A stretch of 63,541 nt of DNA, filler included, from Sluysia triapertura (Eukaryota), in the NCBI GenBank assembly GCA_046118255.1. It is 5 parts of 5 records of this genome, joined end to end, with 100 filler letters (N's around TTAATTAATTAA, not from the genome) between each part and the next. Parts side by side here need not be neighbours in the genome. Positions count along the whole stretch, not along the records: positions 26,389 to 38,580 come from JBJNIA010130404.1; 4 more parts are not named here. One strand, given 5' to 3'. The notes under the pieces are model-generated. The model saw only the letters and a program-made list of their open reading frames with translations, did not search any database and was not told the origin of the DNA. Position numbers and translations under genes: made by a program. Below, piece by piece: positions 13,034 through 63,020 of the stretch (position 1 is the first letter of the stretch; every line of letters starts with the position of its first letter).

Positions 13034-13133
13034 NNNNNNNNNNNNNNNNNNNNNNNNNNNNNNNNNNNNNNNNNNNNTTAATTAATTAANNNNNNNNNNN
13101 NNNNNNNNNNNNNNNNNNNNNNNNNNNNNNNNN
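13034..13133. other. Artificial contig-join linker (N-TTAATTAATTAA-N)
   Basis: 100-nt N run with a central 12-mer that gives stops in all six frames. Identical construct at four positions. Confidence 0.98.
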
Positions 13134-15872: not shown

Positions 15873-18139
15873 TAATTTGTAAAACTAAATATAAATTAAT
15901 ACACAAATAATGCACAACATCTAAAAGGTTCAAATAACAAATAATTTTAATTTATAAGTATAAAATCTAAGAAAGTATAAATATATAACTTACACTATTT
16001 AATGAATAAACATTAATTAATGGTTCATAATGATTATTAATGTAACTTAATACAGTTATATTAAATATCTTGTACAGTAAGAAGATATTAATTCATTATA
16101 GGACAATATTCTTTCAGCCACTATTCAACGTCAAATAGTTCTTTATATATTAATTTTGACAATTAAAAATGTTAGCTTAAATTTCATATAGAATCAATCA
16201 AATATTCATAAATTAGGCACATGATTTAAAATTTGACACTAATGCAAGTTCATTAAATTTTATTTAAAATATCAAAATGAATTTATACCGTATGAGTATA
16301 AATTTATTATTTGACTTTTAACTATTTATAAGTGAGACTAAAAACGTTTAATTTATATTAAATAAATAGTATAGATAACTAAAATGTACAAAATACAAAA
16401 TTAATATCCCAAAATTGTGTAGAATATTATAAATATTTACATGTAAAACTATATCTTTGCATAGCAGAGATTTCGAGTACAAATACAAGTTAGTATTTGT
16501 AAATTTGGATGAAAATACTCATATCAATATCACTCCGGTTGATTCGGTATATAAATAATAATAATACTTTTATTACTATGGACGAAACATTCAAAAAAGA
16601 ACAATATAAATTGATTTTAAAGATATTACGCTTGTAATTGAAATGGTTGTGTGTTTTCTGTGGAATAAGGTATATATTTGTTTATGACTAGTGATGTCAA
16701 TGGCAAGTTTAACGAGCTTTTTGCATAATAAATTTGTGTTATGAGTTAGTTCACCATATTATACAAAATTAAAATTAGTGTTAAATTTGAATGTAGTAAA
16801 CATTTTGAAGATGAAATAATTGATTTTACTTATTCATTTAAAGAAACTTTTGCGCTATATTACGATACACGAATTATCAAATAGGAAATATGTAGTGGTA
16901 TACGCCTTTTAATTATGAGGTTGGTGATAATGACGCCGATGAAAACAATTATGAAACAACTTTAGAAAATAAAAAAATTTCATATCAAAAATAAGACAAT
17001 TAATATGTTAAACTACGTAGTATATCTGGAATATTCTGATAATATTAAAAATGAAACAAAAATGTTACCAATTTCTTCTTAGAAAGTCTAATTATTATAA
17101 ATTGTTTGAAAAAAAAGAATTAAGAATATTTAAATCTTTTTGATGCTATGCTTATTATAATGAATAATGGAATTGAAGCATATGCACTGAAATATTTCAA
17201 TCAACAAATGAATCTTAACAAATTTAATATAAAAATTAAAGAAATAAAATGAGAAATTTTNNNNNNNNNNAACACAAAATATTATGTTTCTAATTCAAAA
17301 ATTAATGATAATAATATTCAATATATTAATAAATAAATCTTTAATAAACATAATAATAGTAATAATAATAGTAATAATAATTTTAAATCAACAATGATAT
17401 AATAATGATAATGATAACTAACCAACTACATCTAAAACATGTAATAATTGTAATAATAATTTAGAAAAATCAATATTAGAAAATGGTAAATATTTCTGCA
17501 ATAATGAATATTTATTAAAATTGTTAAGATAAGAAGCACATGTAAAGTATGTAAAGATTAATCTAAATGGTAAGTGAAACAAAAATGTTTAAAGTTTACT
17601 GTTCTAAATATAAGTTTTGAAATATGTAAACATAAGCAAAAGAAATTTATAATAATTTAATTAAATTAAAATATATTGTATCATTGAAAGGAATATCTAA
17701 TTTACTATAGATGATTGAATATTAATATTACTTCCAAATAATACAAAAGAGGATATTCCAATTAAGTTTTATATTTACTTTTATTGTATGATTAATATGT
17801 AGATATAACTGTACTATCTAATTGAATAGTTTAATTTATCTTTATCACATATACTTTATCAATGGTATTATTTTATTTTTAGTTATTTTATTTTTGTCTA
17901 TTTATTTCTTTGCTAGCTACAATTTTTTCATTAGTCAAAATATTTATGTTATTTATTTTTTACAAGTCGTGATTAACTTGTTAAATATATAAATTTTTTG
18001 ATTAATGAAAGGCAATGAAAAGAACTATAATAATTTTAATCCTTAGTTTCCTTTTCTTACTAAAACTATATCATACTTGCATAAGATTAAACAATGTAAT
18101 AATATATATTGAATGTTAAAATTGTGTTTAAATGCGTAA

Positions 18140-18890
18140 TTTTGAAACAGCATACAATTTGGGTCCACAAAATGCTTTGAAGAAACTGAGTGAAAAAGAA
18201 AATGAAGTAAATGAATTAAGTGATAATAATTTCACAGAGTATGAAGATATAAGTACCTTATCCTGATCAATTACTTCATTTGAAGGCGATGTTGTCAGTT
18301 TCAGTAACGAGGAAATCGGTTTATCTCGAAGTGACATGGATTCCGCCGTTACACAATTTCAGTGATTTATATGGGGATTAAAAGTAAATTTATCTGTCAA
18401 TAGTAATAATTTTGATGAATTTTCACTATTTCGTGATGATGCTTTAGTTACTGAAATTGTACCAAAGAATTATCGAAAATTACATATGTTTCTGGCAAAT
18501 CAAATTTGAAAAAGTGGAATAATGAATTTTTTGAGATTGTGAATTATTATGAAAAATATTCGTATACCTAATTTCAAATCAGTGAAGAACAAATGTTCTT
18601 TATTACTATCCTTTGTTTGAACAAAAGGTTTCGAAGCAATACTTTATTGTTTACGGTTTTGCCATTATAAGGCCGATAAAATTGAACAAGTGTTGAATCA
18701 TTGGAGGAAAACATTTAAAATGTGTACTATAAGTGACAGAAGTTATCAATATGCGAAGTTTTACTCTGATGATAAGGTTGGTGAGCATTTAGGCAATATA
18801 TTCCACTCAAAACGCAAGATATGGAATAACAAATACGATTTGTGCACTTCTGATGGTTTCGTTCTAAACTTTATAATTTATTGTGAAATA
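18140..18890 (+). mobile_element. piggyBac transposase remnant, N-terminal half
   Basis: Acidic N-terminus, then FSLFRDDALVTEIV, GFEAILYCLRF, DKIEQVLNHW and SKRK...YDLCTSDGFVLNFIIYC, which are typical PGBD motifs. Stops and frameshifts present. Confidence 0.75.
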
Positions 18891-19009
18891 ATTAATGGTC
18901 GCGTCTTTGTGTTGTGCGATTATTTGGAAAATGGTCGAACAATTACAACAACATCCAATTAGCCACTTTTTATACTGCTAGAATTTTTCTTATCCTAGTT
19001 TTACGAATA

Positions 19010-19900
19010 AAATTAAATGTAAATTGTTAGTTCACCAACATACTAGTCTTACTGGTTAGGGCTGTCCGTTGGATTGTGAGATTGAGAAAACTTAGTGCTT
19101 GTGTAGATTACTTTAATTTGGCTAAAAAATTTAATAAATGGTGGATATTTTATTCAACATGAATTTTAAGGTAATCAAAAGATTTAGTAATTATTTTAAT
19201 GTGGTTGGTCAAAAATGAACCGAAAACATTTCAAATAGGAATTTTAGTTGAATAGGATTCTAAATTGAACCTCTAAAATTGAACAATGTTGAATTTAATG
19301 AGGTTCTAAAATGAACCTTAAATACTAAAAATATTAGATTAACAATAACAAATAATAATAAAGTATATTCAAATAAAAACATAAAACGTTATAACAAAAT
19401 TTTACAAAGATTATTTTACAAATAATCTTATAATACTTTAATGAGCTACTTAATTAAACAGTAGCTTTTAATATTAACAAAAGTATTTTAAGTAAATAAA
19501 GTTATATTATTAAAGATTTCTATATTAAAGATTTCTAAAAACCTTAACAAAAAATAACTAACGATAATTTTTCGAAAGTGAAAATCTGAAAATATAAATG
19601 TGGATAGACTGAATTAGTTAGTTGAAAATCTTGAGGAGTGAAACGAATATAGATCTTTTGAACTGTTAAGAATATTGAAAAATTCTTGTAAAAAATTTGT
19701 GAAAATTGTAAGAATTTCGTGTCTTAAATATTAAGAAGACTTTTCAAACAATAATTTAAATATTATCATTAATAATAAAAATAATAATTTAAATAAAATA
19801 ATTTAAATAGAATAATAATAATAGTATTCCCAAATAGTAAAAACTAATTAACTGCCTACTTTAAAAATTTAAAATTTTCCAAATTTAAAATTCCAAACCA
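19010..19900 (+). repeat. Family X unclassified coding-like repeat, copy B
   Basis: 19026-19076 GTTAGTTCACCAACATACTAGTCTTACTGGTTAGGGCTGTCCGTTGGATT matches the reverse complements of 29327-29377 and 57981-58018. 19390-19575 matches the reverse complement of 28810-28945. Confidence 0.75.
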
Positions 19901-20099
19901 AAAACATTTTCAAATTAATATTAACAACTTTTAAAAATAATATTAAACATTAATAATTAATCGATAATTTTAATTAGCATACTTCTATTGATAGTTTTAA
20001 TTATCATTTGCATACATTTGTATATACCAATATAACATTCATGCATCTGTATATACTAACATAACATTGCATCTTAATAACAATACAAAAACAAGACAA

Positions 20100-20530
20100 A
20101 TATTGTGGGAACACTTCGAAAAGATAGCAAAGACAACTCCAAATTTGTCACTGAGAAAAACTAAAGAAATAAGAATCAATTTTTTCAAGAATCAATGTTT
20201 CATTGCAGAAATGGAAAATAAATCGTGACGTAAATCATTTAAAGAAATACGATATAGAAATGGGCGAGTAGCATATAAACCCTCTGTTTTTTCTGGTTGT
20301 AATGAGAATATATCAGATTGGTATATCAAATTGTTTTTTCAGTTATTTGACATACCAATTATTCCACACAGCATTTCCTAAAAAACTGAAAATTTCTTCG
20401 ATGCCGCGCGTGCTCATCAATAAACAGCACACAAGTATTGTTTACCCTACAAAATGCGTAAAAAATATTCAAGCGTATCACTTGGACTATGTATAGAAAA
20501 ATGTTTCAAACTATATCAAACAAATAAATA
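20100..20530 (+). mobile_element. piggyBac transposase remnant, C-terminal half with Cys-rich domain
   Basis: VSLQKWKINRDV (KWxDKRDV motif), WYIKLFFQLFD, RCRAC and LGLCIEKCFKLYQ. Confidence 0.75.
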
Positions 20531-22559
20531 ACATGCATTTTAATGTAAAAATCAATTTTAATTTTACTTTTATTTTACAATTTAAATGATTTCATTTTAA
20601 AAGTTATTTGACGTAATTTTATCATTTTCTAAATTATTTTCATTTTATTTAATAATTTATATGTACATTTAATATTTTACTTATGATTTATTTATTTAAT
20701 ATTTTATTTACGATTTATTATAAGATATTACCAGATTTTATGTATTCTTTCTTCGTTTTATCAGTTTTTCAATGTTATATTTACTTGCTTTGCATCTCTT
20801 TTAAACTAAATTTTTCAGCCGTACAAGATTATATAACATTTTTGAATTTCAAAGTGAATGCTTATCTAAATAAAATGATAACGTTCTGTTATATAATTCG
20901 CTTTATGTATCTATATTGTCAGTAAAATTTAAATCAGTTTTTGCCAAATGTTGAATTTGTATTTTATATTTCAGTTTTTAATTTTATTATTTTAATATAA
21001 ATAATTTTGTTAAAAACATTTTAATATCATTTTTAGTTATTGTTATTGTTATAAAATTAAACAATATGATTTAGTTTTAAAATGATTTAGGCAAAAATTC
21101 ACTTATATAAAGAAGAAAATCAAATTTACTTATTGATAAAATATCTGATGTGATTGCCGGCAGTTTAAAATTTTATATTTAATGAACTCGTTAATCATTA
21201 AGGACTTAAGTCCTGCTTTACTTTATTATAGGGTTATTCATTTTTATATTAACTATTATTCAATTTTATATTAACTAATATTCATTTTTATATTGACATA
21301 GTTTAAAAATGTTCCAAAAATTATTAGAGGTGAAATCGAAGCTGAAACGATAGATTGGTGAAATTGATTACTAAATTTAATGTTTTCAAAGCACATTCAA
21401 AGCATATTGCAGTCTTTATAATTATTGTACACTAAATATTGAAAACTTTCCAACCATTTATGGTATTATTAAAAGTATCTTCTCATTCAAAAGAACATAC
21501 AAACCTTGCATCCACTCATGCTCACTTACAACCTTCATTAATCGTTTGTTGATTACCTTTATAATAAAACATAATTAACAAAAATTATAGTCTTAAAGTA
21601 TAATATCTGAGTATTTTTTAAATAAATAACTTGAACTTTTCTGTAATCAGCAAAAGAAAGATAGAATATAAAACGAAAGTTACATAAACTGTTACATAAA
21701 CATCACGCCAGGCACAAGGACACATGATTAATATAACGTCCGAATAAGTTACTTGCTACGTTAAAAGTAACACTATCAAAGAGAACGATCATATGTAATC
21801 TACAAAATTTATTAGAAGAAGGTACTGCTAAGCTCGAAAATAACTATAAGCACAGGAAGCAATATGTGAAGTAAGTATTCCATAGAAAAATGTAAAAAAT
21901 AAATAAAAAAGTAAAAGTAAGAGTACTTTTCATAATGATGTTGATGGAAGCAAGGATTTCGATATGAATAAGATTAATTTTGATAATAATGTGATCAAGT
22001 ATATCAATGATTTTATTGTAGAATTTATTGTTTAATTACTGCATTAAATATAATGAAATGATAATGTTTGGAGTATGTTTTGTGGATGGCGACGAAATTA
22101 TGTAGACAGCCAGGACACCACATCTGATTAATCTGGAACACACATTTAATATTCAATATAAATTTTTCCAGACTTTTAAATTTATTTCTGGTTTTACTTT
22201 ACATTCTTACACAAAAAGAAATACAATTACATTATTTTCAATATCCAATTTCGTGCAATCAATAGAACAATATTAATATTTAAATAATTATCCTTATTTT
22301 TTGGAAAAATTGAAATAGATTCCTCACATCAATTGTACAAATTCTGTTGCAATAGTTAATAGTTATAGATTTGTTAAAGTTTAATTTTTGTAATTATTTT
22401 AAATAAGTGAGCATTTGAAATCCATCAAGGAATAAGTATAATTTTAAATTATTTAATCATCATTTTGCTTCTGTATTTTTAAATTTTCAAAATGATAAAT
22501 TAAGGTAGAATTTAATTTTGCGTAAGAAGATATTTGTTTTCCATATTGGATCATTTATG

Positions 22560-22722
22560 TATTAATGTACAGGCCCAAAGTACCATTTAGAACAATTATA
22601 GTATAATTGATTATAATAAAATAAAATTCTTAGACGAGGCTCAGTGCTCAGTAGTGTGCATAACTATGAGGTGAGAAGTACCTAGTTCGAATCCCAGGCA
22701 GTCCATTTATCGATGTCTAATA
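22560..22722 (+). repeat. tRNA-derived short repeat, copy 1
   Basis: A-box-like GCTCAGT and B-box GTTCGAATCC. Shares the 5' flank GGCCyAAAGTrCCAT and the 3' flank CAGTCCrTTT...GTCTAA with 31972-32122 and 32624-32769. Confidence 0.75.
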
Positions 22723-23589
22723 TACATATAAATATTATAACAAATTATCGCGGCTTTCTTTGATCTTCTAAAGCTTGTTGACATTTTAAAATGTGAATTA
22801 TTTTGAAGATAACTTTCAATTTTTTTGAATAATTAAACACAAATGATACCTGTTTCTTTATTCTTTACATTTTCTTATTAGTAATATTTCACCATTGTGT
22901 ACTATTTCAAATAAAAGTTGTATAAACGGTTTAAATTTTAATGCATATTTTAATTCATACTCTTGCAGCTTATATTCTTGAATGAAAATACTATAATAAA
23001 TAATTTAATAATAAAGCAAAATAATAAAACAAATACGGCAATATATTTAAAAAATTAAAATCCAGATAATTAATATCCCACATAATATACTTTTCGTAAA
23101 TTAGAGTGTTAAATTTAATCTTAAAAAATACCATCTTTTGACAAAATAATGATCGAAAAATTACTGAGAAATTTAGTTATTGATTTTATGCAATATAGGA
23201 AATAATATTAAAAGAATTAATAATTGATAACATTTTAAAATCATTTAAAAAACTGATAAGTTATATTTATTTAGTAGTAAAAATTGCCGCAACGTTAAAT
23301 TAAACGAATTATACTTAACTGCAACTGGTAAAATGCTGGACGCAAAATCAAATTCACAGAATATAAGATGTTATGTGAATTAAAAAAAATTAAATTAAAT
23401 AGAAAATTGTATTGATTGATGTATTGATTTGAAATAGTTTATCTCACAAAAATAGCTTTATTTCATTTAAAAATTGATTTTTATTACAATATTTTGCTTT
23501 AATTTTTAAGCTTTTTGTTTCTAAGTTATTTTTTATTGAACTTCAAAAAGACAATGACTTTTGAAATTTATAAATAATTAATGAAAATT

Positions 23590-24950
23590 TGCAGACAAAA
23601 ATTTTTATTTAATGTATTAAATTTAAAAAATTCAATGTTTAGAAGGATTGATCTGCATATGTTGTTTTCGATCAACCACGCTTCAGTATCTGAAAAAGAA
23701 ACAAAAGTTAAGTTATCTTTGATGTAATAATAAAGAATGTTTACCCTATCATTATCAATGGAACCAACGTTGTCGAATATCCTATACTTGCGAATAAGTT
23801 TGCTAATCTAGAGAAACGCTCCGTCCGGAATGCATATTGAATCTATCATCCAGCAACTGATTGACAGTGTGCACATATGCACAATTAGATCCGAATTTTT
23901 TGCATTTGCCATCTTGGTAACTTGTGTATGGACAAAGTGCTGGTCTATTACATACATCTGTACTTGATAAATCATCGAAATAATTGCGTCGAATTGAATT
24001 AACAGCAACCGATGGGACGGACATTAAATTCTGGAATATATCGTTAAAATGTTGTCCTTTATGAGGATCAGTATATTGATATAATGAGCATATCTCCAAG
24101 CCTTTTTTACATTTATCTTTGTCATCCTTATTTAACTGAGATGAGTTAATTGGTAGAGCTTTATTTGAAATTAACTTTACGCTTGCATTTATTGTAAGTA
24201 TCTTAAAAGATTTGATCCTTTTTATATTCAATGTAAAGCGGTAACGAACATTATTTTATATGGCTTAGAGTAATCATAAACTATATTAGTAACTAGTGGT
24301 GCGAGCTTTACATTTTGATTTAGATCCATCACATCAACATGACTAATTACATCTCTTCTTATTCAAAAACTCAGCATCTTTTGAATCATCTCAGATTTCA
24401 AGTAATTATGTACGAATTGGCATCATAAATTCATAAACTGCATCTTCTTCTAAATTTTCGGTTGATCTTTTAACTTCTAAGGTCGAATGACATTGAAAGA
24501 GTATTCCTATGGAGTTGTCAGTGCTTAATCTGTCTTTGTTACTGACGTTGGTGATGAGAATTCTCAAATCACAAACTTCAAGTCTAATTATATTGAACAA
24601 ATTTTTATTGTTGTCCAGACGAGTGATCGTCTGTTCTAGATTTTGATGAATAAATACTTCTGAAACATTAATATCGGATAAAGGATTTGTAAACAAATAT
24701 CATAAATGACAATTTAATGGTCTTGTTCCAATATACTAATACATAAACGTTTCCATCGTTCATGACTATCATGTTCTTGATTATTGTTATTTGAATTTAA
24801 TAAAATTATATTTCCATTTGGTGGAATGGTAATTTCCAATTCAGTTGTGGAAGTAATTATATCCATATTTGTAGGTTTGATTGTTTGTAAACTTTGATCT
24901 ACAGTTAATTCTCGTTTTACCAAACGTTTGTCTATTATTAAATCTAGATA
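23590..24950 (-). pseudogene. CCCH zinc-finger gene family member 1 (disrupted). Finger at 23934-23869.
   Basis: Track ORFs 24714-24923, 24406-24696 and 23803-24231 are collinear, and the last two are in the same frame. Finger sequence CPYTSYQDGKCKKFGSNCAYVH. Probable 55-nt GT-AG intron 23744-23690 followed by an exon reading TEAWLIENNICRSILL. Confidence 0.7.
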
Positions 24951-26288: not shown

Positions 26289-26388
26289 NNNNNNNNNNNN
26301 NNNNNNNNNNNNNNNNNNNNNNNNNNNNNNNNTTAATTAATTAANNNNNNNNNNNNNNNNNNNNNNNNNNNNNNNNNNNNNNNNNNNN
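26289..26388. other. Artificial contig-join linker
   Basis: N-TTAATTAATTAA-N, 100 nt. Confidence 0.98.
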
Positions 26389-28190: not shown

Positions 28191-28249
28191 ATCTTATTAT
28201 TAAAACTAATTATAATCATTTTGTACATTATTATTATTATCGTTAAATA

Positions 28250-30200
28250 TAATCAGGGTTACTATTTTAATCTTAAAAAATTTTCAACAAAATCGTGTCG
28301 TACAGTATAGAGTATATTAACATTTATTAATTGCTAGTGATTAATATTCGATTATTGATTATTTGTTATTTGTTAATATTATTTATACATGTGAATCTAC
28401 ATTCTACAATATTTGCTTCATTTTACATTTGAATTTTTATTTTTGAAATATTTAATTTAAACCTGGATTTTTTTGGATTTTTAAAGTAAGAAAATGTATT
28501 TAAAAAATTTTGTAAATTAGAACATTTGAATTTTTATTTTTGGAATATATGATTTAAATCTGGATTTTCCTGGACTTTTAAAGTATGAAAATATATTAAA
28601 ACTTCTGTTGATTAAAGAATTATATTTTATTAATTAAGAAATTTTTAAAGTAAACTAACCTGATTGTAAATTAAAATAAATTTAAGTAAATAATAAATAA
28701 GTAAATTGTTTTAATAAATTAATTTTTGATATTTGTTTTAATCTGACTAAAAACAAATATAAATACACTTAAATTTTATGCTTATTTCTTGTTCAAAGAA
28801 AAAGATTGTAAATTATCACGTTAGTTTAATTATTATAAGTTAGATATTTATATAATATCATTAGCAAAATATTCTTAAATTAGTGATCTAACTTGGGATC
28901 CTGTAGAAGATCCATAGCATAATCCTTTTTAAATTTTGTATTTATTAATAAACTAAGTAGATAAAGTTAGTTTCGGTAAATTTTTATTATTAACTTTTTA
29001 GACGATTTTGTATTATTTTGGTAATAAAGTTTTTTTAAGCAATTATTTAATTTCATATAGTTTTAAAATCAAAAAATTAATTGTCACATTTGTTTTCTAT
29101 AGACTAGAATTTAATTCTAGGAAGCAAAATATATTTTATTGATTTCATATAACGGAATCTTCGAAAGATTGTGATTTATTTTTAATAGTTAAAGTTCTCA
29201 AGAAATTCCTTTAAATATTTTAGATTTAATTACATTTGACAATCTTAGTAGATATCAGCAAAATTTACCTCCAGGTAGGATTAAGCATTAAGGCTCCGTT
29301 ATTGTATTTTTGAAACTTTGTTCACCAAATCCAATGGCTGGCCCTAACTGATAAGCCCAGTACGTTGGTGAACTCACATATTTGACTCGCTTTATTCTAT
29401 CTACTTTACTTTTCTCACAGAAGGGAAGATCTATGATTATAGTTATTATTATTAATATTATTGAATTTTTTTGAATAATTTTAGCGTTAAATTGATTTTA
29501 TTTGGCTTTATTACTTTCTAAATTACTTTCCATTTTTCGGCTATTAAGTCTGAAAGAGCTACTCGATAAGATATACATATTATTTATTTCAATTTTTTCA
29601 GATATTGCTATTTTAATTTTTGTTGTTTGTTATTTTTTTGAATAGATTGTTGTGGTCGTATATTGTCATAAATTTTATTGTAAATTTCGAAATTTAGTTA
29701 TCTTTCATTTAGTTTACTCATGTTATTGGTCAAGCAGAGAATTATAATAACGACTTGTATTCGATTTTTTAATTATTATATTATTGACTTATTGTTAATA
29801 TTTTAAATTAAAAACGTAATTTTTGGGTTGAATAAATATCATTATTAAAAAAGAAAATTTGTGATAAGTTATAATTGATTTAGTGAATTTTATTTAAGTA
29901 AAGTAAATTAACATTGGATTATTAATAATTTTAAATAAAAAACGCAAAATGACACTACCAAAATTGTAATATTCTCCAAATTAAAAAGAAGTTTAAAGAA
30001 AGTAATAGTTAATCTTTATCTTTTAATAATTCGAATCTATCACACAATTTTATACTTACGGTTTTTAGTTCACGATCCCATTAATCCTTGTGAAATTAGT
30101 AACGAAATCAACTCCTTATAGTAATATTATAATAACATTTATCATAGTAATTTATTAATAATGAATGATACAAAACCGACACTTACAGTCAAACGAAAAT
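28250..30200 (-). repeat. Family X unclassified coding-like repeat, copy C
   Basis: Collinear patches of identity with 56950-59450: 28733/57287, 28817-28937/57492-57615, CTAGAATTTAATTCTAG at 29104/57797, 29327-29420/57981-58060, 29496/58267, ACCGACAC at 30175/59430. Translation DRIKRVKYVSSPTYWAYQLGPAIGF...KIPLYEINK...FLELNS. Confidence 0.8.
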
Positions 30201-31971
30201 ATATTAAATTTGACAAATATCAGATTCATAAGCTCATCAAAATGATTGATGTGATTAATTATATTTTCTATTTTTTAATAAACACAACTAATTTTAAATT
30301 AACATTTTATAGCATTATATTTCTCAGATAACTTTCAACTTAACTGTTGATGTGATTTTTTCTTCTTTTAGTAACTTCTAGCCTAGGAAAATAATTTTCA
30401 ATGCGAAATAGGTCATTAAATTAAATAAGTCATTCTTATTAAAAGCGAATAACCTACCATCATAAATAATTTAAATTTGTTAGTGAGTCCACTTTTGATA
30501 CAAGTCTTAAGTATCCAAGGACTTGTTAATAAAATTTTTATAAAAGAATTGCGTAAAAAAGAATTACTATGTAAACGTCTGTGTAAAAATTTTTATACTA
30601 ATCTCAAAGATATTTCAGAATGTTAATTGATTCTGGAGTTATTAAGAGTTTAATCCAAGGCTCGTTATTAATTGTGTGATTTTAAGTCATTCTTTATAAG
30701 TAAAGCGTGAAAAAAGTCAGTTTAAGAACCTATTTATAATGGCTACAAAATGTGACACGGTCTCTTGCCAACTATGTGTTATTTCGTAGATAGAAGTTTG
30801 TATTTGTATCGCTCTGCAAATACAAATAATACCATAAATATTTAATCTTTATTTATGATGAGACACTACAGATTAAATGTTTAGGTAGTATTAAATAAGT
30901 TTTTATAAAGTTAATAAATATTTTATTCAAAATAGTATTGCTATTATACTGTATTCATTTTAATATTTAGGCAGTTCAAATAAGAATAAATTTACAATAA
31001 ATAACAGTGTCAACGTATTTAAAGTTTTTACTTTAAAAATGTAACAGGATTTTAATTTATGATTTTCATTAGCTATTTAAAATTCTGCAAAAAATTAAAA
31101 ACTGATTTGAACTACGATAAATAAATGAAATAGAGTTAAAATTGTGAAAACTTTCAGTACAAAACTAGCGTTAATTACAATTTTATACATGATTAGATGA
31201 GAGTTTCTAATTTGAGTAATTGTTTAGTGTTGGTGCTTGAAAATTTTGAAATTAAATTAGTATAAATTGTTGATCTAGTGTTATTAACGAAAATGTAATT
31301 TTGTATGTTTTTTCTTGGAACATTTATGCGCACTAGCGCTTCTATTTATAGTCAAATTTTTGTGACTTTTAATTTCATATTCATTTTTCTACTACATAAT
31401 TTTTTAATGATCAGTTTAACAAAATCAATAACAAGGCTTCTAGGTCTTTTATAACACTTAGAATTTATTAAAATAACAATTTCTTGTGTATATACATCAA
31501 TGATCCAATTTTTCTACGATTGATAGGTTATAACATCTTTCATTCAATGTATAAATTTTGCAAAAATATCACTTTAATCAAATATTAATTTACAAAACTT
31601 ATTTTAATTAAGTTAATTAAATATGCACTTATATAATTTTATACCTTAAAACACATTTTAAGGTTTTCATAGCTGTTTTCTTATGCTATCCAAATATAGC
31701 ACATGAACGATATTGTTCTAGACTTTTTTAGATATACCTTTATGTATAATTTTTAATGCAACAATATAACTCGAATAAATTTTTACTAAATATTTTATAT
31801 ATCTTTAAAATATAAAAATTTATACAAAATCCAAGGTATTAGTACTTTAAAGGATATAATGTTTCAAAATATGCAATCACTACTGAATGTTACTGGAGAG
31901 GGAAATATTAAAAAAAAGCAGTTATTTTCTCGGGAGTGAATGATTTATTTTAAGCACTTTCATATTTTAAG

Positions 31972-32122
31972 TGTTGGAGCAAGGGCCTAAAGTACCATGT
32001 TAAATTAGGATAGTAATATTGACTAAAATAAAATAAAATTGTTAGACGGGTTTGTTAGCTCAGTGAGTAGAGCACCAAACTGCGCATCGATTCCCAGTCA
32101 GTCCATTTTGTGAAGTCTAACA
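31972..32122 (+). repeat. tRNA-derived short repeat, copy 2
   Basis: TAGCTCAGTGAGTAGAGCA (A box/D arm) and TCGATTCCC (B box). TGTT...AACA termini and an internal perfect inverted pair TGTTAGAC (32040) / GTCTAACA (32115). Confidence 0.8.
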
Positions 32123-32623
32123 TAGTGTTGGGTTTGTGGGAAAATAAAATGACTGAAAGAATATAGCAGCTTCAAGGTAAAGGGATCAATATTTTATAAA
32201 ATTGTACAAAAAATTTATAAGTACATTAATTAATTAATTTAATTAGAATTGTTTGAAAATCATTTTTAATCGATAACTTTTCTTAAGGTGTTTGCGTGGA
32301 GGTGATATCACGCATAATAAAATAAATCGTTAAATGTATCAATGTTGTGAACAGCAAGATGGTGTGAAATACGTCAACGTAGATAACGTGAAATCATTAT
32401 TTTTAATTGATTTTCTTTATTATAAAGTTAAATTTCTACGTATTATAATGAGCATACATAATAAAAGAATATATCAATTATGGCTCATTAAGAGATAATT
32501 CTAAATATGTTATTGATAATGTGTTTCGTGTTATATCAAAAGTTATTATTGAAAATTAGTTTTATAATTGATTAGATTTTTATTCAATCTAAATTAATCT
32601 ATTGTTGTATTGACAAGTATTAT

Positions 32624-32769
32624 TGTTGAGACACAGGCCTAAAGTGCCATGTAGTACAATTGACTACAGTAATCTAAAAATTGTTAGATTTGGCTGATAG
32701 CTCAGTGGGTAAAACATCGAACTGCGCAGCGAAAGGTCCCGGGTCAGTCCGTTTTATGAAGTCATAACA
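32624..32769 (+). repeat. tRNA-derived short repeat, copy 3
   Basis: TAGCTCAGTGGGTAAAACATCGAACTGCGCAGCGAAAGGTCCCGGGT with the B box deleted. Termini TGTTGAGAC...GTCATAACA. Confidence 0.8.
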
Positions 32770-35199
32770 CTCTGATCTTAAATTTTAATTTTATTATTTT
32801 CAAAAGGTAAGAGTTTGTTTGCCACAAAACTCATTACCTTTGGATAATTGCTAAATAATATTAAGACGGAAATTCGACGGAAATTTATGCTGAAATTCGA
32901 TTAATTTAATTGGTCGGCATAAAACCAATTCTAAGAAGTAAGCATGTTTTGTCAACATGCACAATAATTAAGTCGAATTCCCGATTTTCTAGAAATTATC
33001 CAAACACTATATAAAGAACCACATTTTTCTATCGTTCATACAAAAATAGAATAAAAGAAAATTATTATAACTTTTGTTGTAAGAAGGCTGATTTAATACA
33101 GTAATGGTAAACACTGATTGAATCTTAAAATTCTCTAGAAATCGGACTAAATTTTATTAAAAATCCAACTTATTGGTGGTTAGTTTAGTCATGAGCTTTT
33201 ATTATTTATTTATTGTATTTTGGGTACTAACATTTATTTGTATTATGTAGCCTGAATTTTATTTTATTAAAGACTTTATTTCGTAAAAGACTGCCTTATA
33301 TTGACTTAATCATTATTTGATTTTTATTGTGATATATTGTAATGTTGGATTTGAAAATTTGTAAATGTATTTGTAAATTAATATATGTTGTGAAGTTTTT
33401 ATCAAATATTTATTATTATATTAAAATAAATAATAAAATATAATTTTAATATTAATGGAACTTGAATTAATTAATAATTATAAAAAATAAAAATAATAAT
33501 AGAAATAATATTAAAAATTTTTATAAAATTAATAAAGAAATTACATTAAATTAATTTAATTTAAGTAAAAAGAATTAAAATCTTCATTGTTTTAATCTTT
33601 ATTTATTTTGTTTATTTATTTCAATTATTGTTCAATTATTAGAAGACATTTTGAAAAATAAATTATTTTAATTTTGGAAGACCTTTTGAAGAAAATTAAC
33701 TATAAATAGGTGAGTTCTATCATAAAATGACTTAAGATTAGAATGGGATTAGAAATTAAAATTTCAGTTTAGATACCGAAGACTTTTATCATGACAGACA
33801 ACTGTCTGGAGCTTTTCGATATCATTTGTTTATAGTTTCTGATGTTTTATGCCACGCAACTGAAATTATTAGAAGCTTTTAAATTTGTTGTCGTATTAGT
33901 GTTGTCCATTATTATTTTTAAATTCTGTTTTAAATTTTTTAAATTTTCTTATAATATTCTGAATATATTATGTTTATATCAAATTAATGTTGGATAAATT
34001 TTTGACATTTTAATCAAAAATTTGTTGTCCGCTAAATTTGGAATTGCACATCATTTTTTTGCTAAAGTTTAAAATATTTTTCCAATCCATGATACTTAAA
34101 TACATTCATTGTAATATTCCATAAAGAAATTTATTATTGATTGCTGATACGGATTTTACAATACTAAATTCATATCTCAAAATAAGTTTTAACTTGTATT
34201 AATTCCTTTTTTACTATGTCTAAACTTATTGGGTACAAAATATACAAACTAGTGGCAAAGCATGCATAACCGACGTTTTAAAATAACTTGTGCTACATAG
34301 CATTTCCTTTAAAAATAGTCTTCCAAAAAGAACGTTTTGCAGATGAAGATATTTGATTAACTTTATGCAAATATTATTTATAATATTTTAATTAATTGTT
34401 ACAATGATTACTATGTAAAATATTTCATATATCGAACATAATAACAATTGAAATTAACCAAAAAATCTTGTTTATCTTGGAAACCATTTGGCACCCGGTC
34501 ATAATAGACACTGTTATCCCATCGTTATGCTACTGATGAAGTAATACTGTAATAATTTTTTTATTGTTTATAAGTTTGTTTAATGTAGTTAATTTAGTTT
34601 TGACTTCTTCTAAGTCTTTGTAATTTAGCTTTTATCTCTTTAAATCTGTATCAAGTTCAGATATGTCTGAATATTATTTTATACTATAAAAGTCCTTACT
34701 CTAAATTATCAATTCAAATCTCTTTATAAAATTTATAGTTATTTGGAACTTCAACTAATATTATTACTTTATATTAAACTTAACTTGAGGTATGAGTCGA
34801 TATACTTGTCCTTGTTGTTCAGGATAGAAGTGCTCAATTACTATTCAATAATAATGTTCTTTAAAATAATTTTAGTAGTGGTGCCACTCTCGGCTAACTT
34901 TAGTACTTCGGTTTAAATTAAATTAAAATAAATAAATAATAATAATAATCACTCATTATCTCACTCTTGAATTCAAAATATTTGTGTTAACAAAAATAAT
35001 TAATATTCAAAATATTCTAAATTAAAAAATAAAATATTATGTTAATTTAAAAATATTATGTTTATATTAATATTATGTTGTTAATATTATGTTTATATTA
35101 ATATTAAGTTGTTTGTTAATATTATGTTTATATTAATATTATGTTGTTGACAATAGTTTTTGACGAGTTGTATTTGTATGAATCTAAAATTTTATTCAA

Positions 35200-36810: not shown

Positions 36811-38580
36811 TTCAGATATGGAAGTGAAACTTATTAATACAAAGTTTAATGCAAAATTCTAGAATATTCTATAATGTAAATTTATAGTTATTCTTCGAAA
36901 GCTTATTATTTAGTAATTTTTTATATCAGATGTCAAACTCCTAATAAAGTTTTATTTTTGTAGGACCAACGAAACCACATGGATTTTAGAGATCTTTTTT
37001 TAATAATTAATGGAAAATTTAATAATCTTTAATAATATTTCTGTAAATGTAAAATTTTATTTCTATAAATATTACTTCCTACTATTTCATTATATTAAAA
37101 TTAGATCAAAATAAATTCATAAAAATTAATGTGATACCCACATGATGAAATTTAGGTTATTGGATGGATATTGGACAACCGAAAGATTTCTTAACTGGAA
37201 TGTGCCTATATTTAGAAAATATGGACAAATCGAACCTCAACATGTGCTTAGATGATAAAAAAATTATTGGAAATGTTTTGATTGTAAGTGCTTTTAATAT
37301 TCATTTAAATATTTCGAATTATACTTGATATAAAGTTTCTCTAAAATATTGTTAAATTATTTTCGTATTTTAATAATTGTGTACGATAAATTGGTAAGTA
37401 ATTGAACAAAGATTAAATGTAATAGTATAGTCAAATAATTTTTGTGTGCTTTGTAGTTTTACCTCAAGTCTTAATTTCTAATGGTGTTCAACTTTAATTC
37501 TAAAAGTTTTACAATTTCTGGTAAGACCTATAAACCTTTTTTTGCAATGTAAAGTAGCTTTATGCTTTAAGGTGTAAACTTGTAACTTTCACAATAATAC
37601 GTTAATTGTTTCTAATTATCGCAAGTTTTAATCTTATGTCTCTTTATATATAACTTATTCAATACTTATTCATTGTAATTTTAATGTCTAGAATCTAGCA
37701 ATTAACCAAATGACTTTTATATAATTCGTTTACTTCAACTGATTTAATTAAAATTAATTTATTAAAATTAATTAAATTATTCAATCTCTTTTTTGAATTT
37801 AATTTAAGTTGGAGATACTCGTCTCTGTTCTTAGAGATGGGAGTGCCAGCTAGTGTTTTATAAATTATTACTTAAAACATTTAAATGTTTAACGGATATG
37901 TAACAACATCCAGTTCCTCCTAACAAATAAAAAGACTTTAATGTATTGATAAAAGTTATTATAAACAGAACAATCCCATACCATAAAAATTTTTAACCAA
38001 ATTTTTAATTATTCTAATTCAAAGAAAATAGTTTTAATTTAATATTTATTTTATGCAAGAAAATAACTCACCTTTAAATGGATCACTTTTAGAAATCGTT
38101 TATTTAACAGTCAAGATCAAAATGTCGTTTCTTTTTCAACCACAAAATTATTACCAAATCATTACGAATTATTGTTTCCAAATGTTTACAATCAACATAA
38201 TGTTAATCACAGCATTACGAATAATAAATATTCACCAAATATAACAAATTGTCCACAAAATAATTACGAAATAATAATCGCAAATTATTACAGAATCTTT
38301 TTTGTGTGAAAATTATTGTTTAAGATGCTTATATATTAGATTTTTATGAACTAAAATTAAATGCAATATAATTCCTTACTTTCGTGCAAATCGGAATATT
38401 TAACTAGAACCGACATCCACGTTATAAATTCTACCAGCGCAGCTAATTATAAACTAATCAAATTCACAGCATTTATATTGGGTTGAGGAATAATTCATGA
38501 GCGTTTTTTTCAAATTTATTTTAAACAAAAAAACTACAACGATTTAATCAATAATATACTCTCCGTTGTTGTTTACAACT

Positions 38581-38680
38581 NNNNNNNNNNNNNNNNNNNN
38601 NNNNNNNNNNNNNNNNNNNNNNNNTTAATTAATTAANNNNNNNNNNNNNNNNNNNNNNNNNNNNNNNNNNNNNNNNNNNN
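38581..38680. other. Artificial contig-join linker
   Basis: N-TTAATTAATTAA-N, 100 nt. Confidence 0.98.
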
Positions 38681-39559: not shown

Positions 39560-40800
39560 ATAATAATAATGTGGAATTTGCTTTGACAATAAAATATTTA
39601 TGTAGTATGTGTGTGAGTTCATCTAGAATCCCAAACTTACATGTTGCAGTTAGTCCATAGAATTTAAAAAAATAATATGTACTTACTTAATATGTACTTT
39701 ATTAACTTCTTAAAGAATTATTACTTTAAAACAATTTGAGGATTAGTGTATCGCTTTATAGTGAAATTGGAATAAATTTTAAATCTTACTTAGAGTTTAA
39801 TCTGTTATTGGAGTTTCGTCTCTTTTCAATGAATTAATGTAGAGATTCATTAGATAGAACCGTTAAAAGGTTATACTACATTTATTTTTAAAATAGAACC
39901 TCATAGGATGATGGTAGTGTTAATTTTAGTGTAAAATTATGACTATATAATTTTGACACTTTAAATAAGATTTTATTAAGAATTTTATTAAGATTCTTTC
40001 AATAAATAGAACTTTTTGAGAATATTTTATTTTGAATGTTTCAAAATAATTGTTGAATTTTAGGCATACATATTAATTAAAGAATTTACGTATGATCCAC
40101 TTTAAAAGGATCAATTAATTTGTATTACTTTATTTTTTACACATGGTAACGAAGAATATCTTTTAAAATTAAAATAAAATATATGCAATTTTTTCTCTTA
40201 AACTTATTTGTAAATTATCTGAGAAGTCGGTTCGCCTAATATAAACGATTTATACCACTAGTTGGAGACGTACTATTAGGATTTTTTTCTTAATTATACT
40301 TAACTAACTTTTTACTTATGATTTAGTTTTAACTTCTATCACTTGAAGCACTTTAATTAATTTATACTACAACCCTTTACTAGATGTTGTTTAATTAGAC
40401 TTTTATATTTTATAATTACGCAATCCGTATTAAGGTGTTGCTTTGAAAACTGTTCTTTAAATTTATATATTACGCAACCTGTATTAAGGTGTTGTTTTAC
40501 AAAAACGAATTTTAAATTAATAAACACTTAAGAAATCCTTAAGGTATATTAACAGTACACAAATAGAACTTACAAAAAATAGCGTATAAGAATAATATTT
40601 TAGTCAACTACTCAATATTAGTTGGTAGTTTTTTAAATATTTTAAGATTTTCCGCAACCCGTATTAAGGTGTTTAAGTGTATTTTAGGTTTCCTTTCTTA
40701 AAGTGAAACCATAAAACTTATTAAAATAAGAATTACTTGTTATGCATGGAATTGAAATAATAAAAATTTTCTTCTGGAACGTTAATTTGAAATTCTAAAA
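39560..40800 (+). repeat. Family X unclassified coding-like repeat, copy D (more diverged)
   Basis: GTGAGTTCA...TTAG.CCATAGAATTT at 39613-39665 resembles the family motif. IKEFTYDPL*KD at about 40076 aligns with IKDFTTDL (copy F) and KKDYAMDLLQD (copy C). Confidence 0.55.
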
Positions 40801-52762: not shown

Positions 52763-52862
52763 NNNNNNNNNNNNNNNNNNNNNNNNNNNNNNNNNNNNNN
52801 NNNNNNTTAATTAATTAANNNNNNNNNNNNNNNNNNNNNNNNNNNNNNNNNNNNNNNNNNNN
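52763..52862. other. Artificial contig-join linker
   Basis: N-TTAATTAATTAA-N, 100 nt. Confidence 0.98.
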
Positions 52863-56949: not shown

Positions 56950-59450
56950 TTATTAATTTAACGTTATTCAGATTTTATTGATTTATGGTTGTATATAATT
57001 TGTACTAAACAAAAGGTATTTTATTATTTTAATTCTTGGAAATAATATTTTAGAACTAACTAATTTATATTTATCTTTTGGAAATAATATTTTATTTAAA
57101 GGTATTTTATTTTATTTTAATCATTCTGAAAAATTTATTAATTATTCTAAAAAATTTATTGAATTTTAATTTGTAATTTATTAAATCTTATTAAAATCTC
57201 AAATTATTGAATTTTAATTCCATTTGTAATTTATTAATTTTTAAAATCTCAAATTAAAGTTAATATTTGTTTTAATATTTTGATATTTGCTTTAGTCTGA
57301 CCAAGGTCGGACCAAAACAAGTATTTAAATGAGCACTTTTTGAGGATAGACACAACAAAATTTTTTTTTAAATTTTTGAAGACCTTTTGGACAAGACACA
57401 CAAAGATTTTTGTACAAAATTGTGAAACAGACCTTTTAGATCAAGTCAGAATATAAAAAAAATTCTACGAAAATTTTTATTAATCACAAGTGACCTTAGT
57501 TTGATAATTTGTAAGATTGATATAAATTTTATATCTTAGTAAAATATACTTAAAATTTATTGTATTAAAAATTTGGATCTTATAAAGATCCGTGGTAAAA
57601 TCTTTTATAAATTTCAATTAAGCACAACTAAATAACAATAGTTAGTTAAAGTAATTCATATTATTATCATCAACATTATTTGTATAATTTTTATATTTTT
57701 TGTACTAAATAATAAAAGAATTTTTCGTGTTGCAATTTTTTAACTTACATATTTATAAAATCCATTAAAATCCTACTATTTGTAGCTTTCAAGAATCTAG
57801 AATTTAATTCTAGAAAGTAAATTTCCATTTATTGATTCCATATAAGGGAATCATAAGTAAAATACATAACTAAACTTAAAATTTAATAACTTGAATTAAA
57901 ATCCTTAGTAAAAAGTATCTACCTTCAGACTAAGAGGCATTATATAAAATATATTTTTTTCTTTCACATTTATCTTATAAAAATCCAACGGCTGGCCCTA
58001 GCAGGTTGGTGGACTCACATGTTTAACTTCTTTTATTCTATTTGCTTCACTTTGCTCACACTAATATGATAATATGAATTTATATTAATATGAATTTACT
58101 AACGTCATAAACAATAAATTAATTAATTTTATTACAAATATTAATAATGGTAACTAATTTTATAATAATAATAATAATAATAATATTAATATTAATATTA
58201 ATAATAGACACAAATAATAATAAATTTTATAATAATAATACTAATTCTAAAATTAGATTTTTATGTATTTATTTGGCATTATAAGGTCACAAATTTCACT
58301 TTATATAAATAAATTATTATTTCAATAGTGTCACATTGTTATTTAATTTCGATTTATACGATTTTTGATATCTTCGATTTGGTTTAACATTATTTAAAGA
58401 TTACATTGGTTATTGTTTCGGACTTTCTTAATAGTAAACGTTAGTTTACGTTGTATTACTTTAAGAGTGAAATTAAATTGCACTGAAATTTCTGTTATAA
58501 TTTTTGGAATCTTTTAATATGATGTCATTAACTATGTTAAATTATCAGTAATTGATTACATATTAATCATTTTAAATTATGCATTTTATAATTTGTATTT
58601 CGTATTTTGCAATTTGTATTAATCAACTATTGTGTTTTCGTTGTTCTATATTGAGAAAGTACAAAGACTTGCAAGTACATTTTGAATTTTATAAAGTCCC
58701 TTTAAATACAAATTGATAAACCCACAATCATAGACCATTTTGAATCATCTCAAACATGCTCAAATCATCGAATCATCAAAAACATTCGAGTAAAATTCTA
58801 AGTAAAGTTTATTAAATTTATATTTACTGTTGTTTTAAATGCGGTCGTAAATTTTACGATTATAGTTATCACCGTTATTGTTCGTAACTTACATAGATTT
58901 AAATAAAATAAATCTTCTACCCACGAACAACCGATTTTATACCGGTAGTAATGCTGCATCTTTGTTTAAAATTGCTAACAATAATTTAATAATTAAATGA
59001 ACTCAAAATTTTCAATGTATCTTCAGTAATCGTAAAATTGTTACTAATTATTGATTATTCTTTAACCGCAGTAAACATTTAATGTTCGCAAAATAAGTGC
59101 AAATTCTAATTATAGATATAAATCCAATTAACAAGTACAATACTGTTACGCCTTAAGTCAATAACAATAATCCAATATTAATTTAGTTCAATTAGATGAA
59201 ACATCAAATGATTTCAATATTCACTAAACCAAGTACAACTTATTACCAATTTTCTTATCATCAATTTATTCAACCCAAAAATTATTTAATATTTTCAAAT
59301 TAAAAACAACTCAATATTATATTAATTACAAAAAAATCAAATATAAGAATAACTATAAATTAACTATAAATGATTAAATCGCAAAAACAATAATAGTTCT
59401 GTTTATTCGCGATATTAAACATTTACAAATACCGACACCTAAAAAGTTAA
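56950..59450 (-). repeat. Family X unclassified coding-like repeat, copy F (longest)
   Basis: Collinear with copy C over about 2 kb. Contains VSPPT-LGPAVGF, EGRYFLLR and MIPLYGINK..FLELNS. A stop-riddled frame lies upstream at about 58980-58330. Confidence 0.8.
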
Positions 59451-60150
59451 AGACAATAATAATTATTATATATTTTTGAACAGCCTTAGCAGAAAAATTA
59501 CAAAATAATCCGGACAGGGAGTCTCCCAAAAATAAAATTATTTAATTACTTAACGAAAATAAAATTTTTAATTTGAAATACTTAAAAGAATTCTGGCAGG
59601 GAGCCTCCCCAAATATTCAGATAACTAAAAAAAATAATTTCAGTGGTAAAAATTAGCTAAATATTTCCCCAAAAAGTTATTTACTTAATAAAATCTTATT
59701 AATGATTAAAATAATAAAATAATAAAAAAACATTAACATAAGTCATGGATTTTCTTTTTTCATCATCACTGTACGCTATGATCGATTGTGTTTTTATTAT
59801 TTAAGTATTAGCTTCTATATCTCTGTATCGTCCAATCACTTTAAAACTCACAATTAGGAATTACTATTGCACAAATCATCAAAACCTTGTGGTGGTATAT
59901 AGTTTATTTCAGTAATGAATATGACTATTTGTATTTTAAATTCTTGTATTTTAAATTCTATTAATTTAACTTTGAAGAAAAATATAGAAAATACTTGAAA
60001 AATATTGTTAAATTTATATTTATTTAAGAATTTTACTAAAGATTTAAATTATCTCTTTTAAAATTTATTGATAAACAAAAGTAAGAGCTAAAATGTAATT
60101 GCACCAAATTTATATTTATTAATTGTTTCATTATTTTCCGATTATGCCAC

Positions 60151-62846: not shown

Positions 62847-63020
62847 AAATGGAACCAAATTTCAGAGGAAAGTACGTCGCAGCGTTGTCAAAAAATGTGC
62901 TTGTATTGAAGTTCAAAGTGGACATTTTGAACATTTGTAAATACTAAATATACCTGAAATTAGTCGTTTTTGATATCCATTTTTATTTAAGTTTGCGGTT
63001 CGGTTACTTTTGGCACACCA
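62847..63020 (+). mobile_element. Fragment of the same Tc1/mariner family as 46129-46989 (right TIR plus transposase end)
   Basis: GTGGACATTTTGAACATTTGTAAAT...GTCGTTTTTGATATC.ATTTTTATTTAAGTTTGCGGTTCGGTTACTTTTGG is nearly identical to 46882-46980. Confidence 0.92.

What the first reader, a model, noticed from the sequence alone, without database searches (positions are those of the whole stretch)
28250..30200. Family X: a high-copy, unclassified repeat encoding an unrecognised protein
Seen: homologous copies at 19010-19900 (+), 28250-30200 (-), 39560-40800 (+) and 56950-59450 (-). A probable 5' part lies at 37990-38430 (-), and 8340 and 42190 may be distant relatives. The best-conserved block varies as coding DNA does (Thr ACA/ACG/ACC, Val GTT/GTG, Tyr TAC/TAT, Leu TTA/CTA). 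Consensus pieces: [ND]RIKRxKxVS[SP]PTYW[AS]YxLGP[AS][VI]G[FL], then [GE]GxxF, IPLY[EG]INK..FLELNS, K[ED][FY][TA]xD[LP]. I see no RT, DDE, HUH, GIY-YIG or capsid motif that I recognise. Inference: four to seven diverged copies in 63 kb imply a very abundant, old and apparently undescribed mobile or endogenous viral gene.
Basis: partly seen in the sequence, partly recalled or inferred. Interest (0 to 1): 0.72.

Follow-up and report, generated by a model that had tools for sequence, protein, structure and literature searches.

The report
High-copy non-coding hairpin repeat, probably Helentron-like
This is an old, very abundant piece of mobile non-coding DNA in an AT-rich eukaryote genome, marked by a short conserved core and several hairpins; it most likely encodes no protein and looks like an ordinary kind of passive transposon.

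Summary
The repeat is real and abundant; the protein is not supported.

Three copies are demonstrable in the window, not four to seven. Copies 28.8-29.5 kb (B) and 57.5-58.1 kb (D) are 76% identical, and 19.0 kb (A) shares a ~55-bp core. The 39.6 kb, 38.0 kb, 8340 and 42190 candidates do not beat decoys. Contigs of the one public run pile on the core at about 8,300 times unique-DNA depth (rough; not a copy number).

B versus D shows no codon-position bias (33/30/34). Only 6 of 29 gaps are multiples of three. A 66-bp ungapped block has shared stops in all six frames. Three marginal hints of a relic frame remain (p about 0.05-0.1).

Best reading: a non-autonomous DNA element with a conserved ~100-bp core, variable interior and terminal stem-loop, resembling DINE-1/HINE (HLE2, rolling-circle) elements. 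One 11/12 subterminal inverted pair in D fits this but was found post hoc. The superfamily is unproven. Low interest.

The parts
29327..29423 (-). Conserved core of copy B (~100 bp; GC-rich hairpin half at 29327-29377 shared with A and D)
   Evidence: summed contig depth 53,134-132,493 against 15.9; loose ends pile at 29326/29327 (45+186 contigs) and 29377 (99); fold z -2.0
28792..29326 (-). Body of copy B, AT-rich, homologous to D
   Evidence: depth 457-8,911 in the bins 28798-29271
29104..29159 (-).
   Evidence: at 29145, 16,647 of 16,760 depth carries the base that completes the first stem, as D does
28896..28913 (-).
28729..28760 (-). Remnant of the terminal stem-loop in B (10-bp deletion against D)
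   Evidence: fold z -2.5; depth drops from 4,762 to 154 below about 28640
28425..28601 (.). 97-bp unit x1.8 tandem duplication beyond the terminal hairpin; membership uncertain
29485..29923 (+). Module Y in B, abutting the core head to head
   Evidence: 271/352 with D; depth up to 23,863, but only 223 in bin 29509-29587
57981..58064 (-). Core of copy D (13-bp internal deletion against B)
57463..57980 (-). Body of copy D with three perfect hairpins (57833-57853, 57796-57814, 57575-57591)
   Evidence: 3 hairpins with arms of 7 bp or more, reached by 0 of 1000 shuffles; fold z -4.5 and -2.95
57287..57320 (-). Terminal stem-loop of D, 12 of 15 arm positions paired
   Evidence: sequence; fold z only -1.08
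57335..57346 (-). Candidate subterminal inverted repeat, 14 nt inside the terminal stem-loop
   Evidence: 11/12 inverted match to 59666-59677; post hoc
58100..59165 (-). Interior of D between Y and the core, with an (ATA)n tract at 58162-58245; no clear homologue in the window
59166..59555 (-). Module Y in D, collinear with the core
59666..59677 (+). Candidate partner subterminal inverted repeat at the outer edge of a block of three TTTGGG motifs (about 59525-59680)
   Evidence: tied best inverted match in the whole window for the 45 nt inside D's stem-loop
19005..19079 (+). Copy A: core only (firm for 19025-19079)

Best explanation
Family X is an old, non-coding, non-autonomous interspersed element. 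Shown: copies are dispersed, about 25% diverged and broken by indels of all lengths; a ~50-100-bp GC-rich core is far more abundant than the rest; several conserved blocks are palindromes; one end carries a stem-loop; a second module (Y) sits next to it in either orientation. Inferred: the palindromic blocks are cis signals read on single-stranded DNA by a transposase supplied in trans. Most likely this is the Rep/helicase of an HLE2-type rolling-circle element (Helentron/Helitron2), which would nick at one end, displace a strand and stop at the stem-loop. D (about 57.27-59.68 kb) would then be a near full-length HINE-like copy bounded by a 12-bp subterminal inverted pair, B a rearranged copy and A a core-only relative. 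The 'protein' is a translation of conserved DNA hairpins.
For: No codon bias; 6 of 29 gaps in threes; shared stops in all six frames of the longest block. Hairpin excess in D, 0 of 1000 shuffles. Other copies carry the base that completes B's first stem. The core is far deeper than body and Y, with sharp loose ends, which parallels the conserved ~90-bp core, variable centre and 3' stem-loop of DINE-1 (PMC2374699, passages). The 11/12 inverted pair has one arm 14 nt from the stem-loop and the other at the outer edge of the Y side; only 2 sites in 63.5 kb score as high. HINEs have 12-15-bp subTIRs plus a palindrome (PMC4067079, passages). On the + strand both ends are T-flanked with the stem-loop outside the left repeat, as described for 'HLE2-reverse' (PMC11417382, passages).
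Against: The subTIR pair is post hoc and seen in one copy only; B has no counterpart. In a broader null 3 of 25 random regions reached the same score. No inverted pair links the core itself to the far end, and under this reading the core is internal, which is odd for the most abundant part. The fold of D's terminal stem-loop is not significant (z -1.08), and the core folds no better than shuffles in D and A (z 0.32, -0.23). B alone has no hairpin excess (p 0.17-0.34). Tandem repeats lie outside the stem-loop, not centrally. No RepHel partner, empty site or TT insertion site was seen, and no genome was held. Marginal relic-frame signals exist.
Confidence: 0.47

Rival explanations
1. A composite of two or more independent non-coding families: a short core element, a body and Y. 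They belong to some other DNA-transposon group (TIR/MITE or Crypton-like) and nest at the same AT-rich sites.
For: Depth differs widely among modules (core 132k, Y 24k, body 0.5-9k) and is low between core and Y (223). Y flips relative to the core. A has the core alone.
Against: Y lies beside a core in 2 of 2 cases although only 3 cores occur in 63.5 kb. No TIRs were found around the core or around Y.
Confidence: 0.2
2. Remnants of a retroposed element (Penelope-like pLTR, LINE 3' end or SINE). The core marks the 3' end on the opposite strand, and the flipped Y is a 5' inversion made at insertion.
For: Depth rises overall towards the core end, as 5' truncation would give. Inverted pLTRs are known in Penelope-like elements (PMC8969392, passages). 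The B junction geometry resembles L1 twin-priming inversion (recalled). The core loosely resembles a tRNA D-arm (by eye).
Against: No hammerhead core in any copy and no Rfam hit at E<=1. No pol III A+B box: 6-8 mismatches, the same as background, while the tRNA-like family nearby scores 3-6. The inverted module is not a repeat of the element's own sequence. The simple-repeat tract beside the core is in opposite orientation in B and D. The depth gradient is confounded with GC content.
Confidence: 0.15
3. One reading: decayed copies of a protein gene of unknown family (transposon or endogenous virus) amplified to high number.
For: One frame has 14 stops in B against 24 and 33 (p=0.05), the lowest pN/pS (0.68) and the highest synonymous share (20/91; best-of-six p=0.096). 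B-D register is modal over 48-60% of aligned bases (p 0.016-0.19). Copies of a single master would show no codon bias even if the master was coding (simulation). A lies about 60 bp behind an unassigned decayed reading frame.
Against: Third-position share is 34/97. Stop density is 7% against 2.5 +/- 0.8% expected. Two shared stops lie in that frame inside a conserved palindrome. D shows no stop depletion (p=0.22). BLOSUM and minimum-stop tests are null (p 0.81, 0.75). A/T-run tails follow the core in many contigs. No credible homologue in 1.84 billion representatives, in longer proteins of the 5.8-billion set, Pfam, PHROGs, PDB, the ESM Atlas or viral contigs; these short or X-rich queries have little power.
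Confidence: 0.12

Closest known systems
DINE-1 / HINE non-autonomous Helentrons (HLE2); PMC2374699, PMC4067079 (passages read)
   Same: No ORF, very high copy number, a conserved ~90-100-bp core, variable interior, microsatellite tract, stem-loop at one end, and a candidate 12-bp subterminal inverted pair next to the stem-loop.
   Different: No short IR beside the far subTIR. The core would be internal rather than in the terminal block. Tandem repeats lie outside the stem-loop. One module is inverted in B. No sequence comparison with DINE-1 or HINEs was possible.
HLE2-reverse (FoHeli3/4/5 layout; PMC11417382, passages read)
   Same: Read on the + strand, D has the stem-loop outside the left inverted repeat and T-rich flanks.
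   Different: One copy, found post hoc; no autonomous partner seen; described from Fusarium oxysporum.
Penelope-like pLTRs and retrozymes (PMC8969392; bioRxiv 10.64898/2026.07.22.740005; passages read)
   Same: Inverted upstream segment; abundance peaking at one end.
   Different: No hammerhead, no tandem or self-inverted repeat, no RT or GIY-YIG remnant.
~170-bp TIR elements with (GGGTTA)n interiors in metagenome loci L005 and L006
   Same: They share a 22-nt motif with the core; L005 also matches about 9 further bases upstream.
   Different: The motif there sits inside telomere-like repeats just before a TIR, and family X has neither; probably convergence.

Membership tests
HINE / DINE-1-like (HLE2) | 12-15-bp subterminal inverted repeats | tested here: inconclusive
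   11/12 pair in D, post hoc; absent in B; none involving the core
HINE / DINE-1-like (HLE2) | Stem-loop just outside one subTIR | tested here: met
   57287-57320, 14 nt from the candidate subTIR; remnant in B; fold z only -1.08 in D
HINE / DINE-1-like (HLE2) | No coding capacity | tested here: met
   Longest open stretches in A, B and D equal shuffles
HINE / DINE-1-like (HLE2) | Insertion at TT with no TSD | not testable with these tools
   No genome, no empty sites; flanks are T-rich on + but the window is 77% AT
HINE / DINE-1-like (HLE2) | Termini shared with an autonomous RepHel element | not testable with these tools
   No genome held; no RepHel Pfam hit in the ORFs and frames scanned
HINE / DINE-1-like (HLE2) | Short IR 3-22 bp from the 5' subTIR (DINE-1 only; mite HINEs lack it) | tested here: not met
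   None by inspection of 59640-59700
Helitron1 (HLE1) | 5' TC, 3' hairpin plus CTRR, A|T insertion | tested here: inconclusive
   No CTRR right after D's stem-loop by inspection; termini not fixed
tRNA-derived SINE | Pol III A box and B box | tested here: not met
   6-8 mismatches, equal to background; ARAGORN found 0 genes
Penelope-like / retrozyme | Hammerhead ribozyme or tandem/inverted pLTR | tested here: not met
   Y is not homologous to the rest of the element
MITE / TIR transposon | Terminal inverted repeats and TSD | tested here: inconclusive
   No TIR above null around core or Y; copies too old for TSDs
Protein-coding mobile or viral gene | Third-position bias, frame-keeping indels, open ancestral frame | tested here: not met
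   marginal register signal
Protein-coding mobile or viral gene | Detectable homologue | tested here: not met
   low power
Any Dfam/Repbase family | Sequence match to a curated consensus | not testable with these tools
   No such library was offered

The most novel reading that the evidence does not exclude
The element is a non-autonomous rolling-circle vehicle whose body is the relic of a captured gene of an unknown protein family. Its ~50-bp GC-rich core is a recognition signal shared by many otherwise unrelated families in this lineage and can recruit or flip neighbouring modules. It would then mark an undescribed group of mobile elements whose autonomous partner may be the unassigned decayed frame just upstream of copy A.
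Probability: 0.1. Interest if true: 0.55.

Novelty: new member of a known kind. Interest (0 to 1): 0.17.

Why it matters
As most likely read, it matters little beyond annotating this genome. Old, unclassified, non-coding repeats at hundreds to thousands of copies are routine in AT-rich eukaryote genomes. It is a useful caution that conserved DNA palindromes translate into convincing 'motifs'. It would matter more if the shared core led to an autonomous partner with an unfamiliar enzyme, or if the marginal frame signal held up across many copies.

Tried and rejected
No genome is held. No RNA holder was listed; one run holds the stretch and may be the source sample.

phmmer of the 53-aa open stretch against 1.84 billion proteins gave 3 hits. 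All three are tandem-repeat proteins whose weak per-repeat scores add up; one is a PKD-repeat protein and two are singletons without a matching family. Rejected.

B's frame read with X at stops: none of 959 candidates scored, longer proteins only; Pfam, PHROGs and PDB gave 0. The D frame scanned was the one holding the core peptide, not the one holding IPLY..INK. D's core and body were not scanned against Pfam. Viral contigs: 0 by DNA pattern; 0 of 66 candidates confirmed by tblastn. ESM Atlas best score 0.80, recognition 1171.

The metagenome pattern scan gave 7 loci. L001-L004 show no core context, L007 is a telomere-like run, and L005/L006 are small TIR elements.

Alternative codes 4 and 6 do not open A, B or D. 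C reached 348 aa under code 6 (3 of 200 shuffles) and E reached 80 aa under code 1 (5 of 200); these are among 15 tests and were not pursued. The tubulin ORF has no in-frame TAA or TAG. A possible copy at 36.75-38.15 kb (-) was the top background window (164.9), but its alignment is gappy and the unrelated window 43.4-44.8 kb scores nearly as well against D (86.5 against 97.8); not accepted.

The frame upstream of A looked EnSpm-like by eye (recalled motif). It gave no hit in Pfam or among 20 longer candidates, one weak PHROG of unknown function (E 0.009), and an Atlas score of 0.88 or less.

Host lineage: the best tubulin hits (58%) are unnamed; unresolved. A full-text search for six short motifs gave 0 papers and a descriptive search gave 0. 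Earlier scan notes: nothing by sequence or place; the 8 word hits are other genomes and did not bear on this. No structure prediction was run, as there was no open frame or alignment worth folding. Paper supplements were not consulted.

Full report
Setting. The window is eukaryotic DNA of 20-29% GC with a divergent alpha-tubulin ORF at 5839-7578. The best hits are 58% identical and unnamed, so the lineage is unresolved. Four N44-TTAATTAATTAA-N44 spacers (13034, 26289, 38581, 52763) divide it into five pieces, which may not be neighbours in the genome. A, B and D lie on three different pieces, and E and C are separated by a spacer. No whole genome was held.

Which copies are real. With AT-aware scoring and shuffled or reversed controls over 7 regions (21 pairs, both strands), five comparisons passed the flag: B-D same strand (353 against 48-63), B-D opposite strand (177 against 46-108), A-B (112 against 46-74), 8340-42190 (103 against 38-51) and, marginally, A-D (73 against 46-51). 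B and D align over 28792-29468 and 57463-58097 at 441 of 581 columns. A shares 44 of 55 bases of the core. Profiles of core, body, tail and Y found only their own training copies. C and E sit in the background of whole-window scans. C's end is related to 33660-33790 (95 against a null of 55), and both carry a short motif also seen in D at null level; C is therefore at most an unproven distant relative. The finding's 'four to seven' is three.

Abundance. One run holds the stretch. Laid on 28245-30600 at 80% likeness, 4,267 contigs aligned. Summed depth was 15.9 on the unique flank, 132,493 on 29351-29429, 53,134 on 29272-29350, 18,883-23,863 on Y, 8,911 on the hairpin block 29114-29192, and 223 in the bin 29509-29587 near the junction. 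The tool warns that this is no copy number, and overlapping short contigs inflate it (my inference). I read it as hundreds of copies at the least and probably thousands. Loose ends pile at 29326-29327 (231 contigs) and 29377 (99), with low-agreement A/T-run tails, so a ~50-bp core is shared by many elements whose flanks differ. Only 6 of 713 loose-end rows and 40 of 135 variant rows were shown.

Is it coding? (a) Longest open stretches of A, B and D match shuffles under codes 1, 4 and 6. The A-B core gives 4/4/3, and most of its changes alter the residue. (c) Of 29 gaps, 6 are multiples of three. Simulation of an open ancestor gives 2-5% for one shared stop and 0.3% or less for two. It is the only one of the 21 blocks without a free frame. 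(e) Stop density in the best frame is 7%, against 2.5 +/- 0.8% expected from neutral decay of an open frame; this anchors the frame on B, so frameshifts in B would inflate it.

Against my reading. B-D register returns to one offset over 48-60% of aligned bases (p=0.027, 0.016, 0.19 and 0.023 under four gap settings; 0.073 with re-aligned simulations). Copies from one master would show no codon bias even if it coded. A relic of a gene further back stays possible, at about 0.12.

What is conserved instead. D has three perfect hairpins with arms of 7 bp or more in 826 bp, reached by 0 of 1000 shuffles; B alone is not significant. Those D segments fold at z -4.5 and -2.95. B keeps two of them, and at 29145 almost all other depth (16,647 of 16,760) carries the base that completes the third. 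A fourth stem-loop (57287-57320; remnant at 28729-28760) lies near where shared depth ends. The core can fold (z -2.0 in B) but not beyond shuffles in A or D. There is no Rfam hit at E<=1, no tRNA, no pol III boxes and no hammerhead core in any copy.

Architecture. D reads: Y-side block, Y, about 1 kb of interior, core, body, stem-loop. B has Y flipped and abutting the core. In D, 57335-57346, 14 nt inside the stem-loop, matches 59666-59677 at 11 of 12 bases inverted. For the 45 nt inside the stem-loop this is the tied best of two such sites in 63.5 kb, and it falls at the outer edge of the Y side. I found it after scanning ten region pairs, 3 of 25 random regions reached that score in a broader null, and B has no counterpart. 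It is a lead, not a test passed. Two contigs show a similar TTTGGGGG motif just outside B's Y boundary (table 5c), which suggests Y begins with that motif in other copies.

Mechanism. Shown: dispersal, age, abundance, modularity, palindromes and the lack of an open frame. Inferred: mobilisation in trans, most likely by an HLE2 Rep/helicase acting on single-stranded DNA with the stem-loop as an end signal (0.47). Rivals are nested independent DNA families (0.2), retroposed remnants with a 5' inversion (0.15) and a decayed gene (0.12).

Comparison. DINE-1 has a ~90-bp conserved core, variable centre, 13-bp subTIRs, a 3' stem-loop and no ORF (PMC2374699, passages). Mite HINEs have 12-15-bp subTIRs and a palindrome near the 3' end, and prefer T-rich sites (PMC4067079, passages). 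HLE2-reverse places the stem-loop outside the left repeat (PMC11417382, passages). Penelope and SINE criteria were taken from PMC8969392 (passages) and bioRxiv 10.64898/2026.07.22.740005 (passages). Family X looks like these HINEs in layout, but membership is not established: insertion site and partner could not be tested. Dfam and Repbase were not available. Two full-text searches found nothing on the family, which does not show that it is uncatalogued.

Verdict. Observation partly confirmed; interpretation partly supported (abundant mobile repeat yes, protein no). New member of a known kind; interest 0.17.

Noticed in passing
window 13034-13133, 26289-26388, 38581-38680, 52763-52862: Identical 100-bp spacers (N44, TTAATTAATTAA, N44) every 12-14 kb: the window looks like joined contigs, so adjacency across them is unsafe.
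   Followed up: partly
window 22572-22724, 31984-32124, 32633-32769 (+): Three copies of a tRNA-like repeat with A box, B box (intact in one copy) and conserved ~60-bp upstream and ~25-bp downstream flanks; not called by ARAGORN or Rfam.
   Followed up: partly
window 46124-46994 and 62868-63019: Young element of ~870 bp with 70-bp TIRs (91% alike) and a second partial copy; the ends look Tc1/mariner-like (recalled). The pair shows a high synonymous share on few codons (p=0.009).
   Followed up: partly
window 18102-18962 (+) and about 16400-16950 (+): Decayed reading frames with no family assignment; the first ends about 60 bp before copy A.
   Followed up: partly
window 23803-24255 (-), 60151-60474 (-), 62274-62690 (+): Three ORFs with weak UNK-like CCCH zinc-finger hits (E 2e-4 to 7e-3); two align at 31% over 52 aa: a small dispersed family.
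   Followed up: partly
window 5839-7578 (+): Divergent alpha-tubulin with a C-terminal extension of about 200 aa; two unnamed 58% relatives are of similar length.
   Followed up: partly
window 8341-8538/41962-42176; 4465-4596/30272-30410; 25232-25454/61457-61585; 33660-33790/40757-40906: Four further pairs of old dispersed repeats, none shown to belong to family X.
   Followed up: partly
L005 676-840 (+), L006 about 1243-1420 (-): Related ~170-bp TIR elements with (GGGTTA)n interiors in two metagenome contigs share a 22-nt motif with the core.
   Followed up: partly
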